A stretch of 64,000 nt of DNA from Saccostrea cucullata (taxonomy: Eukaryota). The stretch spans positions 1-64,000 of the forward strand of contig NW_026938238.1 of assembly GCF_032062105.1 (NCBI RefSeq), read 5' to 3'. The notes beneath the pieces are model-generated. The model was given only the letters and a program-made list of their open reading frames with translations. It did not search any database and had not been told where the DNA came from. Within the stretch, counting starts at the first letter, position 1, and every line of letters starts with the position of its first letter. A program made the translations under genes and the position numbers. This document shows, one piece after another, positions 49,992 to 58,780 of this stretch.

Positions 49992-52900
49992 CTAGCTCTG
50001 TTCATTGTTTAGGGTGTACACTGGCGTGATAGTAGATTCCGCCATTTTTTGCTCATACACTGCTGTGAACAGCTCATTCTGTGCTACCGTGAACCAGTTT
50101 CTCCAATCTCCCACGCAGCCTACAACATAAAATGAACGTTAGTTTTGGCGCCATACATTGCCAAAAGGTCGTTATGACAGCATGTCAAATAACCACGTCA
50201 AGGGCAGGTCAACCTTACATTCAATGGTTCCTAATTTATTGTATGGTCTATTTCTGTGGTACCAAGTACAGTAATGTAATTGACGAAAAAAAGGAACACT
50301 GCCCAACAATGGACGATTCTAGGACTCCGATAAATACAACTGAAGAAGTATAAGCAAATGTGGAAATTTTTACTTTTAGTTGTTTTTGTTTTGTTTATTT
50401 TTAAAAATTGTTTTAATCGAAAGTAATCTTATAATTTTCACATAAATATAAAAAGAAAGTATCACCAGTCCTTTTTGGGAATAAACCTGAGAAGTTTAAC
50501 AATTTTCATAACAATATTACGTAAATTTCAGGAAGTTCACAAGTTTTTCTTTTTTCAAAAAAACGTTGAAGAGTAAGTATTTCTTTCGTTTTGGAAAAAA
50601 ATGTGGACAAGTTTATGTTTACCTGGACAAGGATGTAAAAAAAAATCTTTTATCCATGAATTCGGAAGGACTTCAATGGTATTGATTTTATTGTTTCTCC
50701 CTTGTAAATAATTTTTTTTTAAATTTTCAAGCCAGGAAAGCTACTAATTTACCTTCTCCGACAGATTTCATCTCCATTACTGTGACATTTCCCCATTTCC
50801 TACCTTTTCAGTACATTCCAGGCTCTCCGTTTCTTTATTTTGTAATATCTCCCATTTTTAACCTTTTCGATACATTCCCGGCTCTTCATTCTGTAGTTGT
50901 TCCCTATTTTTTTTTTACCTTTTCGGCATACATTTTTTGTACATCTTAGGTTCTTCACCTCTGTAATATCCTCTATTTCTTACATTTTCGATACATCCCT
51001 GGCTTGTCATTCTGTTTCATTTTAAATTTGTCCTCTATTTCTTACATTTTTGGTACATTCCTGACTATATATTATTAATAGCGCCCCCCATGCTTACCTT
51101 TTCGGTACATACCTTATACTCTCCATTTGTAGGGTCCCGCATTTCTAAATTTTTCGGTACATTCCTAGCTGGCTCTTCATTCTGTAGTGTCCTCTATTTC
51201 TGACCTTTTTCGTATATTCTTAGCTCATATTATATATATTGTCCTTCATTTCTTACACTTTCGGTACATTCCTGGCTCTTTATTATAAATAGTATCCTCC
51301 GTTTCTTACCTTTTCGGTACATTTTCCTGATTCTGTCCTCTAGTTCTTTCCTTTTCGGCACATCCCCGGCACTCTATTATGCATAGAGTCCTCTATCTTT
51401 TACTTTGTTGGTACATTCCTGTCTCTGTTCTTCATTTCTGACCTTTTCAGTACATTCATGGCTCTTTATTATGTATATTGTCCTTCATTTGTTACCTTTT
51501 CGGAACATTCCTGATTCTCAATTATGTATAGTGTCCTCAATTTCCTTTTCTGTACATTCCTGGCTCTCTATTATTTATAATGTCCTCCATTTCTGACCCT
51601 TTCGGTACATTCCTGGCTCTGTCCTTCATTTCTGACCTTTTCAGTACATTCATGGCTCTATATTTTGTATAATGTCCTCCATTTCTTACCTTTTCGGTAC
51701 ATTCCTGGCTCTCCGTCTTTCCATTCTGTTATATCCTCTAAAGGGTCCTTTTCTTCTTTCATCACCAAGAATGAGCACTGGGCAGAAATATCATGTGACA
51801 GGTCGCTACTGCAACTGACTGCTAAGAATTCTGCCAAGTTTCTGATCTCGTGTTCAGGGGACTAAAAAGACCAATTACAGAACACTATATTGTAGAACCA
51901 GTTTGCTACTTAAAGGATTTCCAGATTAAAAGATGTATTTCCAAGTTTTCCATCTATTTTCAGAGATGAAAAAAAAAATTGCTTCATTCAAAAGCTAGAT
52001 TGAGTGTAAGCTACCACGAATTTCCAGTTAATCCTTTACACAAAAAATGTATAAAATAATTGCCTGATATGTAATTTATCTATTTCGGTTTTAAACTACC
52101 ACCCCTGATCGGAAAAGGGTACCATATGAACAAATCAAGTTCGAGATTGAGTACCTTTGTTTTCTGAAGATAGATACACTGTATAATGCATCTTTGATGT
52201 AGGTTGGCCTAATAAGTTCTGAATTAACATGATTGTACAGAAGTTTAGGATAAACTGAAGTCGTTTTCGAAAGAGTATATGCATTTTAGCTAGAAAAAGT
52301 AAAATTGCTCTTAGATGCTGCCCCCTTACTTTCGTTTTGTAAGGTCGAACACTGGTATATTCCAGATTTTTGACAGTTAATGAGGTCTCTTTTAAAAAAA
52401 AAAAAAAAGAAAAAAAACCTGCTCGTCAATGCAATTTTAAGATGGTAAGTTGTTCCCCTCCTCAACTTTTGAAACCGTTGATACGGGCATGCTTATGACA
52501 GGTTGTCTTAATTCAAGCAATCGTATTCAGTCTATACACAAATAGAGGTTTTGTTAATTCTCGTCTGCTGTCAAGTTTGAAGCATAAGCGCTCCACGTGT
52601 AAGTCTGTAGATGACGAAATGATAGGATTTTGTACAATTGACAGCGGAGATGAGAAGAAACAACCTACATGTGCTGGGAGTTATTGAAAGCAGATGGACT
52701 GATTCAGGAAAATACGTACAACAGCAATTGCAACACTACTGTATTCTGATCAAGAGGATGGACATCATAAAGAGTTTGCAGATATTTCCCAACAAAGAAG
52801 GTTGACAGATCTTTAATGGATCGGAAGCCAATCAGCAGTAGATTGCTAACAGTACGGCTTAGCGGAAAGCAAGACACGTGTCACAAGACACTATTCCAAT

Positions 52901-55900
52901 GCTATGCACCTACTGACGATGCAGATGAAAAGGACAAGAATGCTTTTCATCAACTACTTCAGAAAGAGAAAGAACTAGATAACACATCAGGTAGATTATG
53001 ATGTTGCTATCATCATGGGTAAAATGAATGCCAAATTCGGAGCAGATAATGAACTGGTAATGGGAAACATGGTTGTGGGATCATGAATGAAAGTGGAGAG
53101 ACTGCAGAGTTTTGTACCACCAACAACTATGTATTTGGAGAAACACTACTCCACCATCGAAAGATTCATACGTTAAACTGACAATCTCCAAACATGAGAG
53201 ACCAAAATCAAATTGACCTCATCATGATAAATAGAAAATGGAAACGATCTTTTATGGTATGAGGGTGGAGAGAGTTGCCGATGTAGATAACGATCCCATC
53301 GGCAAACAGCAACTATCAAACTAAATCTAAGGAGCACAGAGATAATTAAAGGACATATGGCAAGAAAGAAATTAGATGTGGATAAACTTAAAGACACCAA
53401 GATACAAAATGAATTCAGTATTATGCTTAGGAATAAGTTTGATGTACAGGGCTGTATTACAAACTTAAGAAGCAGTGGACAACATACATGTAACATCAAT
53501 CGACGAAAAGTGTGGGGAAAATTAACATCTAAACTGAAACAATTGTTAAATGCATTGGTTATAGGCAAAATCAAAGGAGTAAAGACTGGATAACACCTAG
53601 ATGATGGATAATGATTGGCTCAAGGAGAAAAGAAAGTGCATGCGACAAAATCTCCGAGACTTAAAGAGACATCAAAGGGAATTCAGTGAAATAGAGAAGG
53701 GCGTAAAAAGGCTATACGCTCAGACAAGACAGCATCCATACCGTAGGTGCCCTAGCAACAAAAACAGAAATGGCAGTCAACAAAGAAGAGCAAGAAAACC
53801 TTTACAAAATAAACAAAGTCAGTGAGTGGCAGGAATAGACTATCTCCAAAGCTATTTTAATCTAACTGTCAGGGACAAAAGAGGAAAGTTGCTGTCATCA
53901 GAGAAAGAGATGGAGGAACGGTGGACAGCATTTTAAGGAATTCTAAAATAATCCACCTCCAGCTCATGAACCTGACATCAGTGTTCCAGCAGATGTCCTA
54001 AATACCAGCATTGAACCACCACAAATTCAAGAAACCAGGTTATGACAGTCTTTTTAGAATTGTTTACGACAAATCCACTTCTTACGGCCATGATTTTACA
54101 ACCAATTTTCCATGACATCTGGGAAAGCAACAGCATTCAAAATGAATGGAACCATGGAGTAATCATGAAAATACCAAAGAAAGGTAACCTGTATGACTGC
54201 AACAATTGGCAAGAAATACTTCTTTCCATCCCAATTAAGATTATGGGTAAAATCATCATCAGAATATTCGCATCTGTAGATGTCAAAGTGTAAAGAAGCA
54301 GGGTTTAGTCCAGGGCGAGGATGTATTGATCAAGTTTTTACACTAAGAAACATCATTGAACGGTGTAAAGAATGACAACGATAATGATAAATTAATTTTA
54401 TTGATTTCTAAAAAGTCTTCCCAGTATTCATAGAGACGGTACTATATTCTCTGGAAAATTAAGCGGTCCTAGGGCATCCCACAACATCCAATAGATGTCA
54501 TTAAGAGTTTTTGTCAATTTCAGGTGCAGAGTTGGAAACAACAGCATTGGGTTTGACGTTAAAACAGGAGTACGTCAAGGCTGTATAATGTCATCAACAC
54601 TATTCATTATAACCATTGACTTGGTCATGAAGAATACAACATCTGTTATTCCAAGAGGAATCAGATAGGGTACATATACAACACTAGAAGACCTGGACTC
54701 TGCCGATGATATATTCTTTTTCTCTCACTCCCACCAGTGCATTCAAAACAAAACCAGCAGGCTCCACAAATATGCAGGAAGCATTGGACTGAAGATCAGC
54801 ACCAAAAAGATAGAGGTCATGACTCTACATATAAACAACCCACAAGCAATCAAAGTGGAAAATCATATCCTTCCATGCACAACACCTTTTCATACTGGGT
54901 AGCAAAGTAAAACAGATGGTGGATCAGAGACTGACATCAATCAGAGACTATCCAAAGCAAGAGCAGCATTCAACAACCTACAAACTGTCTGGAGATCAAG
55001 TCAGTACACAATAAGAACAAAGCTGAAACTATACAAGAGCTGCATTCTACCTATCCTCTTGTATGGATCAGAGTGTTGGATAATGACAGAGAGTGACCTA
55101 AGCAAGCTGTCGACATTCCATACAAATTCCCTAAGAAGGATCCTAAGAATATTTTGACCAAACACCATCTCAAATCAGGACCTTCTCAACAGGTGCCAGC
55201 AAGAGGACATGGCCACAATTATCATCAGAAGACGCTGGAACTGGATTGGCAATGTACTTAGAAGGGACTCAGTATCATAAAGACAGCTCTCTTCTGGACA
55301 CCTAAGGGAAAACGAAAGAGAGGAAGTCACTTGGTGAAGGACAGAAAGCTGGGGGTACACTCCAAAATGTACCTTGACAGACAAGGACGAGAACCCTGGT
55401 TACTGCCCTATACGCCAAAAGCGCCACGGGCAGTAAGTAAGTAATTAAATTCTCTTAATTTCTTTGTATAATATCATGACTTGTATGTTGTTATAACATT
55501 TCACACGATAAACGTGATGACTTTAACTTTCCTATAGTCAACTTCCCTTACCTATGCAGCAATATACTAGTACCTTAATTCATCACCTGCATACGGAGTT
55601 GTTTATATATCTCAGTTGATTCGATACGCAAGAGCATGCTCTACGTATGAACAATAAAAACGAGGTAAATTATTGACAAACAAGTTGATGAAACAAGAAT
55701 TTCAGCTGTCTCGTTTAAAGTTATCATTTCGTAAGTTCTATGGTCGATACAATGGCCTTGTCAGCAAATACAATTTATCATTGAGTCAAACGCTGACTGA
55801 CGTTTTTCGTACTTATTGTTAGTTCACTATTTATACACTGAATTGACGACGGATTTTTCCGTTATTTCCCGAACATGACAAGGAGCACACGGCGGGTGTG

Positions 55901-58780
55901 ACCGGTCGGCAGGGGATGCTCACTCCTCCATGGCACGTGATCCCACCTCTGATGTTTCGGAGGTCTGTGTTTGCTCTGCTCCTATTTTGTATCGTTTTAT
56001 GGACCTTTGATCTTGAAAACTGTTCCTTATCTCCATATGTTTCACCCGAAATATGATTAAAGCGTGTTCAGTACTAGTGACTTATTTTATCTGGATATTA
56101 TTAAAACTACGACATTCGGGACGCATTAGATTGATACATCTGTGTCCAGGCCCATTGAAGTTTATTGCTTGAGCAGAGTTGTTTTACCTGATGCAGACTT
56201 TCGTATGTCAGGGTATGGAATGGGAGGTCTGGAGACGTCTTCATTGATTTCTCCCAGTGAAGAACGTAGTCGAACCAGGAACCGTAATCAACTGAAAGTA
56301 GAAAAGCTCATCGAGCACTCTTTTAAATCATTACAAGTATACGAGGGACGTTGAATAAATACTAGTAGGTAAAAGATGGTAAAAATAAGACGAGCACAAA
56401 AAGTAGTTTCTTTATAATTTTTATCCCATAAAATATTCCCTGTACCCTTTCAAAACTAAAGATACATGTATGTAAAGTCAGCAAGGGTCAATGTAATTGT
56501 TAACTGAATAAAGACGCATATACATGTACCAAATAGTGCTCAGCCAAAAATCAACCAAATAAACCCGAAAAAGAGGCATAAAACAAATATTATTGTTGAT
56601 CTTCAGTCAGTCAAAAGATTTCAGTAAATTGAATATAATATAGTTATAGAAGATTTTGATGTCAATGGATGGGAAATATAATTATTGGTAAACTAAGATC
56701 AATAGTCAACAAAATAGGTTTACAAACAACAATAACTCCAAAATCAACCAAATGAGCTCAAAGAAATTTTTTACCACTCGTTCAATTTTGTTTTGTTTCA
56801 AAAATATCCATTGAGATGAGAAATCGCATGGTTTGGGATGATCAACAAAAACACGAATGACTCGTCAAATTACACCTCATATTACATGCATTTTCACTGG
56901 TTTCAGAGACCTACTGGTTATAAGTATGTATATTGCATTTGTTTTATATTGTGCCTTTGTAATATTTAAGAACTGGCCACTACATTTTATAGCTTGTTTA
57001 TACTCAGAAGAGGTTAACCGACTAGTATTTCATTACAGAACGTGAGAATGCAGTGAACCACACACACACACACCTTTTCCGTATAGGAATCGTCCCAGAT
57101 ATGACCTCCAACTTCCGGAATACTCGTAGTCGAGTAATCGTACGTGATGATTATAAAAGGAAACGGCCACGTCTTTGGGATTACGAAGCACGTAGATCAT
57201 CTTACATCTTTTGTCAACAAAGTCTTTAGGTATGTCTGAAAATAGCATGTGCGTGTTCAGTACTCTAGGCGATAACATATTTTGCAATGCAAACCCGGAT
57301 CCACATTCCAACATGGCGGATTCTTTCATTGATGGTATTCGAACGGCTTTCTGGTCCAGTATCATCTTCACAATTTCCCAAACCCAATGTGTCCCTGCAA
57401 ATTTAAATAAGGATTAAAACCCAAAAGCCAACTAAAATATTCGAAACAAATATGTTGAAATACGATACATAAAATTCTTTTACGTTTACTCGTAAACATA
57501 TATTGTGGTAAAACGAAACTGAAAATATAGTTTTAACGTCTTAATGAAGGTATCACACCGGTAATTGACCAATCAAAATGTAGGTCCATATATATAAAAT
57601 TAATTTTCTTTTCTTTTGAGGCGTTTTTCTATTTTCTTCCAAGCCATTTTTACAACTTTGGTACCTGTGCCTAGTAAATTTTATGTACTTTGTGAATAAA
57701 TAAAAGTTTTTGACAGGAACTATTTTTTTCAGGGCATAGGAGGCTACTTCCTGTGATGCACTCGAGGTGTTTATAAACAAAGTGAAAACACGTGGATTTG
57801 AGGGTAGCCCTGTTTGCAGATGGAAAAAGTCCGAAAATGCCGTGTGGGTACCCTGTTTTTTGGTGTCAGCTAATGTGACAGGTAATGTTTATCACCTCCT
57901 GCTAAAATTTTTTCTTTAATTTTTACGATTTTTTACTATATAGAATTATATAGTGAAAACATATTTTGCGTTAAAACGAAACTGAAAATATATTGTACAA
58001 TTGAACGTTTGTTGTCACACTATTTATCAGACTGGTAACGGTCAAAAAGTCACCGGGGATTATAAATGTGGTTACTCAACCTGTGTTGATTACGTTTTGT
58101 TTTTTCTGTTTTTTACTGCGGTCTGCCATTTCCGCATTGCACTGTGGTTTTTCTTGTGGTCTGCCGAGCAACTCCTAACTTACATGTATGGATTGTAATC
58201 TCTACGAGTCAAACGTTTTTTGAGCATTAAAAAATGCTTGAAAATTTATTTATTTATTTTTATTAAGAGCTGGGAGAATTTTGTAGTTGTATACTAAAAT
58301 CACCCAGCTGGCTCTGGGGCCATAAAACTGAGACGAGTTCACTTTTGATTTCAGCCTCACCTTTTACCAAAGGGATTAATAGTAGAAAAGTGAGACTGAG
58401 ATCAAAACTGGGCTCATCTAAGTTTTATGACCTCGGGGCCAGATGCAAGTCATACTGATGATTAGTTCGATTACTATCACTTTAATTCTAAAGGATTACT
58501 GAAATAACCTCAAGCTTTACTAGTATAGAACTACTGCGTTTACTTTACCACACTAATTGCTACATTCTATTCAAAAAGATATTCTAAAAACCTGCTATGT
58601 TTTACCTGACTTTGGGTAAGCACAGATGAGAACGTCATCACTCCTAGCTTTCCATGACGTCATATTACGGAGCTCTTCCTCTTGGTCGTGAGGGGTCCTC
58701 AGTATGGGGAAGTATCGCCCGTTGACCTCAAGAAGGGACATCATGTCCCCAGCATCGTCTGCTACCTTAACAATAGGCAT
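49992..58780 (-). CDS. Cytosolic PAPS-dependent sulfotransferase (SULT1-like), 5 exons, ~299 aa
   Basis: Exons 58780-58606, 57394-57074, 56291-56188, 51861-51690, 50119-49992 (900 nt, phase-consistent). 5'-PSB motif AYPKSGTHW, catalytic region LNTH, 3'-PB motif RNPKDVAVSFY, YGSWFDY, and MYRKG-CVGDWRNWFT. Confidence 0.94.
50750..51689 (-). repeat. Minisatellite of ~18 degenerate 40-60-bp units derived from the sulfotransferase exon 4/intron 4 junction
   Basis: Plus-strand unit gtcctccatttcttaccttttcggtacattcctggctct reads AGAGCCAGGAATGTACCGAAAAG|GTAAGAAATGGAGGAC on the minus strand, identical to the real exon end and donor at 51690. Confidence 0.92.
52590..55443 (+). mobile_element. Near full-length degenerate RTE-clade LINE in sulfotransferase intron 3 (antisense to the gene)
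   Basis: Endonuclease remnants (QCYAPTDDA, NQIDL), RT remnants (IPKKGNLYDCNNW, GVRQGCIMS, DLDSADDI, LLYGSECW), (GTAA)n tail at 55433-55445; many stops and frameshifts. Confidence 0.9.
55503..56040 (+). mobile_element. Penelope-like retroelement 3' fragment
   Basis: DKRDDFNFPIVNFPYLCSNI..SPAYGV..SQLIRYARACS..FRKFYGRY plus the conserved tail; paralogous to 100-700. Confidence 0.6.
58313..58442. mobile_element. Small palindromic MITE
   Basis: ctggggccataaaact..ttttgatttcagcctcac / gtgagactgagatcaaaa..agttttatgacctcggggccag. Confidence 0.6.

What the first reader, a model, noticed from the sequence alone, without database searches (positions are those of the whole stretch)
50750..51720. Minisatellite made of amplified splice donors: ~18 copies of the sulfotransferase exon-4 end plus its 5' splice site
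Seen: the first ~0.95 kb of intron 4 is a tandem array whose unit is the last ~23 nt of exon 4 (EPGMYRK-G) plus the first ~16-30 nt of the intron. At least two copies keep a perfect AAAAG|GTAAG (near 51093 and 51304); others carry GTCAG, GTAGG, GTAAC or GTAAA. Reading through the real donor gives GKKWRTLYKI then TAG (51660-51658), so any downstream donor would include a premature stop. Established: RKGxxGDW is part of the PAPS-binding site, and here it is split by this intron. Inference: the array is a bank of competing or decoy U1 sites that could send transcripts to nonsense-mediated decay (NMD), so repeat number might tune enzyme level. It could also be a neutral slippage product.
Basis: partly seen in the sequence, partly recalled or inferred. 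Interest (0 to 1): 0.72.

Follow-up and report, generated by a model that had tools for sequence, protein, structure and literature searches.

The report
Repeated splice donor in oyster sulfotransferase
The end of an exon and its splice signal are repeated about 18 times inside the last intron of an oyster sulfotransferase gene; this is a known kind of repeat, likely present at a few hundred other places in the same genome, and the copies have decayed evenly, so they are likely harmless leftovers rather than a control switch.

Summary
The array is real: the true donor (51689) plus 17 clear copies and one decayed copy. The unit is better read as the last ~50 nt of exon 4 plus ~9 nt of intron. 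The five-exon model using the first donor equals RefSeq XP_062588049.1, Saccostrea cucullata sulfotransferase 1B1-like. It is an exon-intron boundary minisatellite like human F7, IFI6, CBS, LMNB2, PDGF and the amphioxus 'mirages'; this scan noted the same kind before in other genomes. The donor 9-mer has diverged like the rest of the unit (24 of 153 vs 117 of 694, p=0.81), so there is no sign that decoys are kept. The nearest copy lies 21 nt after the stop, too close for junction-based NMD. No informative RNA was available. Wider result: triple-donor arrays give 3483 genome matches vs 380 for the reversed word, 13 of 16 sampled unit families start at exon-like frames, and acceptor words show no excess. 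The locus is ordinary; the genome-wide donor bias is the better lead.

The parts
58606..58780 (-). Sulfotransferase coding exon 1 (ATG at 58780)
   Evidence: five-exon model identical to XP_062588049.1
57074..57394 (-). Coding exon 2
   Evidence: (Pfam PF00685, E 3.9e-20)
56188..56291 (-). Coding exon 3
51690..51861 (-). Coding exon 4, ends in the RK-G codons; true donor GT at 51689-51688
51681..51739 (-). Inferred founder unit: last 50 nt of exon 4 plus first 9 nt of intron 4 (59 nt)
   Evidence: alignment of copy consensus and of distal copies
50795..51680 (-). 17 tandem copies; donor-equivalent first bases at 51636, 51597, 51544, 51495, 51442, 51403, 51350, 51309, 51256, 51204, 51149, 51097, 51045, 50983, 50918, 50862, 50803; mean pairwise identity 66%
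51310..51689 (-). Younger higher-order duplication (two blocks of about 190 nt, 154 of 184 aligned bases alike; 53+39 nt dimers)
51658..51660 (-). In-frame TAG reached by any read-through of the true donor (267-aa product lacking the GDW half of the motif)
50744..50794 (-). Probable 19th, decayed copy with a donor-like site at 50752
   Evidence: (not significant alone)
49992..50119 (-). Coding exon 5 (last coding exon) to TAG; acceptor AG at 50121-50120

Best explanation
The last 50 bases of exon 4 and the first 9 of the intron are repeated in tandem about 18 times in the last intron, likely as a neutral relic of duplication and unequal crossing-over, and the spliceosome likely keeps using the first, true donor. 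Shown: the unit spans the junction, the array is unique to this locus, copies are old and evenly decayed, and the annotated protein uses the first donor. Inferred: a 59-nt duplication founded the array, a 6-nt shorter variant then spread through the near half, and later block duplications made the 53+39 pattern. Inferred from the human F7 experiments and amphioxus data: the most upstream donor wins, so such arrays are tolerated; at most a small leak to the nearest copy would make a dead 267-aa enzyme. Inferred: the same tolerance explains why this genome holds many donor arrays and no excess of acceptor arrays.
For: Donor 9-mer differs from consensus at 24 of 153 sites vs 117 of 694 elsewhere in the unit, p=0.81; GT changed at 3 of 34 vs 21 of 187 neighbouring exon sites, p=1. 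Copies are 66% alike on average, star-like tree, no coding-frame signature useful as exons. Gene model with the first donor has 0 differences from XP_062588049.1, and the S. echinata and Magallana orthologs keep the intact RKG-x-VGDW junction. 0 of 55 motif-defined donors in paralog loci carry two or more copies, so the array is not a family feature. Arrays of this type are common in the genome. PMC1557585 (abstract, introduction passages, discussion read): identical pseudo-sites in F7 stay silent; only the true donor is used in LMNB2 and PDGF. PMC3087553 (passages): mirages do not appear to disturb regular splicing.
Against: No RNA shows which donor is used: the two runs offered do not cover exons 1-4 or the array, and whether the RefSeq model rests on RNA at this junction is not known. 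9 of 17 copies still score within the range of ordinary donors (31st-93rd percentile), and one (51097) scores above the true donor. In human IFI6 and CBS the nearest pseudo-sites are used. The test of even decay has little power (17 non-independent copies, found by their core), and the core -22..+9 is closer to consensus than the spacer (p=0.0009), which may be ascertainment or mixed spacer types but could be constraint. The scanning rule was shown in mammalian cells, not molluscs.
Confidence: 0.75

Rival explanations
1. Neutral in origin but leaky: the nearest copies (51636, 51597) or the intact ones (51309, 51097) are used in a minority of transcripts, giving a truncated enzyme or NMD, so array alleles change enzyme level as an unselected side effect.
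For: Every downstream donor gives the same 267-aa stop product, and from copy 3 on the junction is 60 nt or more after the stop. Nearest pseudo-sites are used in IFI6 and CBS (PMC1557585 introduction). ABCA7 VNTR length correlates with lower expression and exon skipping (PMC6660495 passages). The Crassostrea angulata ortholog has an annotated isoform with a 59-nt, frame-shifting insert at this same junction (P0035), so the junction is not always spliced one way in oysters.
Against: The two nearest copies have lost +3 A (36th and 9th percentile); intact copies would make exon 4 552 or 764 nt long. No truncated Saccostrea protein is in the cluster of P0004 (2 of 2 members are full-length RefSeq models; weak, as no transcript-derived member is there at all). 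The C. angulata insert begins with Val, not the Gly that read-through of a phase-1 donor gives, so it is probably not donor read-through.
Confidence: 0.18
2. A selected regulatory device: a bank of decoy or competing U1 sites that sets sulfotransferase output through unproductive splicing and NMD.
For: Array begins exactly at a donor that splits the PAPS-binding motif; 14 of 17 copies keep GT; the closest paralog has a 2-copy 53-nt repeat with donor-like sites just behind the same donor, weakly similar to the far end of this array.
Against: No preferential conservation of donor positions; absent from 55 paralog donors; paralog similarity (score 35.5) is matched by background windows (up to 36.5-42); similar arrays sit behind unrelated genes such as Rubicon-, mannosidase-, carboxyltransferase- and 5'-nucleotidase-domain exons, which fits a general mutational process better than a gene-specific device.
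Confidence: 0.05
3. Assembly artefact (mis-expanded repeat).
For: No read data confirmed the stretch (one search shows no cover there).
Against: Copies differ from each other by about a third and in length, which collapse or stutter of reads does not produce; single locus in the assembly.
Confidence: 0.02

Closest known systems
Human F7 intron 7 37-bp VNTR (Borensztajn et al. 2006, PMC1557585; abstract, introduction passages and discussion read)
   Same: [quoted passage not shown]
   Different: F7 unit is 4 exon + 33 intron bases, 5-9 identical copies, polymorphic and tested; here about 50 exon + 9 intron bases, 17-18 diverged copies, polymorphism and splicing untested.
Human IFI6 (6-16) intron 2, CBS intron 13, LMNB2 and PDGF intron 4 minisatellites (known only as described in the introduction of PMC1557585; the original papers were not read, PMC306954 is not held)
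   Same: Similar copy numbers (10-25) and the same layout.
   Different: In IFI6 and CBS the two nearest pseudo-sites are used; here the nearest ones are weakened by mutation and use is unknown.
Amphioxus 'mirages' in Adh3 and globin genes (Ebner et al. 2010, PMC3087553; abstract and passages read)
   Same: Invertebrate tandem duplications of exon-intron boundaries, 81-100% identical units, reported not to disturb normal splicing; suggested to be general in that group.
   Different: Both 5' and 3' boundaries are reported there; in this oyster the word counts show an excess for donors only; this array is more decayed.
ABCA7 intron 18 VNTR (PMC6660495, review passages read)
   Same: Intronic repeat next to an exon whose length could affect expression and splicing.
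   Different: Effect shown in human cells and attributed to factor binding; the passages read do not describe a reiterated donor.

Membership tests
Exon-intron boundary minisatellite (F7-type / mirage) | First unit spans the exon-intron junction | tested here: met
Exon-intron boundary minisatellite (F7-type / mirage) | Head-to-tail copies repeat the donor in the adjoining intron | tested here: met
   17 copies, 14 with GT; at most 2 in 200 shuffles
Exon-intron boundary minisatellite (F7-type / mirage) | Unit is specific to the locus, not a dispersed satellite or transposon | tested here: met
   one match in G000 for the array and for exon 4 DNA; the search may skip common words
Exon-intron boundary minisatellite (F7-type / mirage) | Copy number varies between alleles | not testable with these tools
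   no second allele in the assembly; runs X1, X2 do not cover it
Exon-intron boundary minisatellite (F7-type / mirage) | mRNA mainly uses the most upstream donor | tested here: inconclusive
   RefSeq model uses it; no RNA cover
Regulated unproductive splicing (AS-NMD element) | Alternative site under purifying selection | tested here: not met
   24 of 153 vs 117 of 694, p=0.81; low power
Regulated unproductive splicing (AS-NMD element) | Stop more than about 50 nt before the last junction (rule recalled) | tested here: inconclusive
   21 nt for the nearest copy, 60 nt for the next, 113 nt or more for the rest; UTR introns not examined
Regulated unproductive splicing (AS-NMD element) | Isoform rises under NMD block; conserved in orthologs | not testable with these tools
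   no suitable RNA; ortholog DNA not found
Recursive splice site / intron gain by tandem duplication | AG of a copy usable as acceptor (pyrimidine tract before it) | tested here: not met
   no AG with 9 or more pyrimidines in the 15 bases before it; array is 71% purine; the intron position is shared by 31 paralog donors, so it predates the array
Cytosolic sulfotransferase (Pfam PF00685) | Full domain with PKSGT loop and RKGxxGDW motif | tested here: met
   E 3.5e-57, profile positions 2-254 of 255; sequence

The most novel reading that the evidence does not exclude
5' splice sites are a hotspot for the birth or survival of minisatellites in this oyster: hundreds of genes carry donor ladders while acceptors do not, and their length alleles act as a genome-wide source of heritable variation in splicing and mRNA level, of which this sulfotransferase array is one old example.
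Probability: 0.12. Interest if true: 0.65.

Novelty: new member of a known kind. Interest (0 to 1): 0.27.

Why it matters
As a single locus it matters little: one more exon-boundary minisatellite, old and decayed. What could matter is the side result that such arrays appear to number in the hundreds in this oyster and favour donors over acceptors. The known cases are a handful of human and amphioxus genes; a genome with hundreds would let one test in bulk whether the first donor always wins outside mammals, how often nearby copies leak, and whether the donor bias reflects how arrays arise or which ones are tolerated. Searches for an oyster report (oyster, minisatellite, intron, tandem repeats, splice site; 0 papers) and for a genome-wide survey found none in the library held, which lacks most subscription journals.

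Tried and rejected
RNA evidence: no RNA holder listed; the two guessed-RNA runs X1 and X2 cover intron and transposon stretches and run unspliced across the exon 5 acceptor, with no cover of exons 1-4 or the array; they say nothing on donor use. Donor use at a second, similar array (CoA-transferase gene, L109) remains untested. Ortholog DNA: metagenome scans by protein and by degenerate pattern found nothing. Look-alikes among earlier scan windows: none; the same-genome look-up returned unrelated notes. A first survey of paralog donors from tblastn ends mis-placed several donors and was replaced by a motif-based one (rows L070 and L071 dropped as not sulfotransferases, leaving 55 of 57; near-identical alleles count separately and some first-intron rows may be false). 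Shared ancestry with the short repeat in the closest paralog: 10 in 1000 shuffles reach the score but background windows do too, left open. Recursive splicing and intron gain rejected. PDB sequence searches for two sampled exons gave nothing for L104 and a weak formin hit for L106. The IFI6 paper is not held. No supplements were read; those of PMC3087553 hold mirage alignments that could refine the comparison.

Full report
Observation. On the minus strand, 18 stretches match the 24-nt core around the exon 4 donor between 51705 and 50819; outside the array only three weak matches (6-8 mismatches) exist in the window. Shuffled intron gives at most 2 hits in 200 trials against 17 observed copies. 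Units are 39-65 nt, mostly 52-53. Fourteen of 17 copies keep GT; two keep AAG|GTAAG (51309, 51097). A 19th decayed site lies at 50752.

Gene. Five coding exons (58780-58606, 57394-57074, 56291-56188, 51861-51690, 50119-49992) give 299 aa with 0 differences from RefSeq XP_062588049.1, Saccostrea cucullata sulfotransferase 1B1-like; Pfam PF00685 matches over the whole domain. Intron 4 is the last coding intron. Orthologs in S. echinata, M. gigas and C. angulata keep the same junction motif.

What the unit is. The part that looks intronic beyond +9 is a decayed copy of exon positions about -50 to -23. Three of 17 spacers match it significantly on their own (p 0.002, 0.002, 0.008), the last clear copy is 80% identical to the 59-nt exon-end unit, and the 53-nt consensus aligns to that unit with one 6-nt gap and is identical from -22 to +9. 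So a 59-nt tandem duplication across the junction is the likely founder (inferred). Copies average 66% identity with a star-like tree and no decline with distance; a younger block duplication of about 190 nt sits at the near end (84% alike). The array has one place in the assembly.

Are the donors kept? Against the consensus, the donor 9-mer differs at 24 of 153 sites and the rest at 117 of 694 (p=0.81); against the exon, 24 of 153 vs 21 of 187 for the adjoining exon bases (p=0.26). Against my reading: the spacer is more diverged than the core (72 of 325 vs the -22..+9 part, p=0.0009); mixed spacer types and detection by the core can explain this but I did not separate them. With a weight matrix from 67 motif-defined donors of this genome, the true donor is at the 81st percentile, 8 of 17 copies at or below the 9th, 7 at the 31st-36th, and two at the 81st and 93rd. 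The test is weak because copies are few and related.

What use of a copy would do. All give the same 267-aa product ending before GDW. The stop lies 21 nt before the junction for the nearest copy, 60 for the next and 113-905 for the rest. By the 50-55 nt rule (recalled), the copy most likely to leak would escape NMD, which does not fit an NMD dial. No RNA could test this.

Paralogs. 0 of 55 motif-defined first- and last-intron donors in sulfotransferase loci carry two or more copies; one has a single 8-mismatch hit (40 stretches fetched around a subset of the 52 exon 2 hits, plus loci). The closest paralog (L003) has a 2-copy 53-nt repeat right after the same donor, with weak, inconclusive likeness to the far end of this array.

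Genome context. Three AGGTAAG words spaced 25-55 apart match 3483 times in G000 against 380 for the reversed word, although the two words are equally common in 452 kb of unselected DNA (60 vs 64). AGGTGAG gives 2083 vs 852; the acceptor word TTTTCAG gives 525 vs 1240. Matches overlap within arrays, so these are not locus counts; by contigs in the listed range (up to C1751) it is 17 vs 6 (p=0.035). I fetched all 17 contigs' arrays (19 stretches, 16 unit families): 13 families begin at an open frame of 29 codons or more that ends at the first donor, 2 do not, and 1 start lay outside the stretch (background 43%, p=0.002; the family tally is my reading of those outputs). Four of these frames have clear Pfam hits (Rubicon PI3K-binding, GH38, carboxyl transferase, 5'-nucleotidase) and a fifth gene has a CoA-transferase exon next downstream. 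Rough extrapolation: 260-660 arrays for this one word and spacing, with haplotype duplicates not removed; the sulfotransferase array itself would not match the pattern. One control word per test is a thin control.

Known systems. PMC1557585 describes the F7 intron 7 VNTR, whose pseudo-sites are functional but silent because the most upstream donor is chosen, and lists IFI6, CBS (nearest pseudo-sites used), LMNB2 and PDGF (only the true donor used). PMC3087553 describes amphioxus mirages that do not seem to disturb splicing. PMC6660495 and PMC10078293 (passages only) show that intronic repeat length can affect splicing in humans, which keeps the leaky rival alive. Earlier notes of this scan report the same kind in at least 12 genomes (unchecked AI notes, not counted as evidence).

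Verdict. A real, locus-specific, old exon-boundary minisatellite; new member of a known kind; most likely neutral with the first donor in use (0.75). The decoy/NMD dial is unsupported but untested by RNA. The more promising lead is the apparent abundance and donor bias of such arrays across this oyster genome.

Noticed in passing
G000 genome-wide; L090-L108: Donor-bearing tandem arrays are far more frequent than the reversed-word control (3483 vs 380; 17 vs 6 contigs in the listed range) and mostly start at exon ends of unrelated genes, some with about 60 near-perfect copies (L103, L107, L108); acceptor words show no excess.
   Followed up: partly
L104 / L109 (G000:C1556, about 156850-157070, minus strand): In a CoA-transferase gene the 42-nt donor array (about 9 copies) is in frame and free of stops, so use of downstream donors would add 14-residue repeats instead of a stop.
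   Followed up: partly
P0035 (C. angulata XP_052715319.1): An annotated isoform of the ortholog has a 59-nt insert at the same exon 4-5 junction that shifts exon 5 out of frame; 59 nt equals the founder unit inferred here, but the insert starts with Val, which read-through of a phase-1 donor would not give. DNA not available.
   Followed up: partly
L003:1664-1780 (G000:C18396): Closest paralog has a 2-copy 53-nt repeat with donor-like sites right behind the same donor, weakly like window 50790-50740.
   Followed up: partly
window 49986-49907 (minus strand): The 3' part of exon 5 is duplicated once, degenerate, directly after the stop codon.
   Followed up: partly
window 48061-48440 (plus strand): The neighbouring gene (pescadillo-like by my recall of its sequence; no call confirmed the name) has a 20-bp minisatellite starting about 10-20 nt after the donor of its last intron, without the donor in the unit.
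   Followed up: no
P0038, P0042, P0045: Many Logan contigs of the Magallana ortholog encode a 66-aa form that leaves the frame right after exon 1 (59 contigs for P0038), suggesting frequent intron 1 retention or an alternative site.
   Followed up: no
window 52500-55450 and 55570-56050: Intron 3 holds a decayed reverse-transcriptase-like stretch on the plus strand (by eye) and a high-copy dispersed repeat (very deep).
   Followed up: no
window 23830-25252, 34780-35760, 29951-30161, 33603-34016: Other satellites: 167-bp, 156-bp and 56-58-bp arrays.
   Followed up: no
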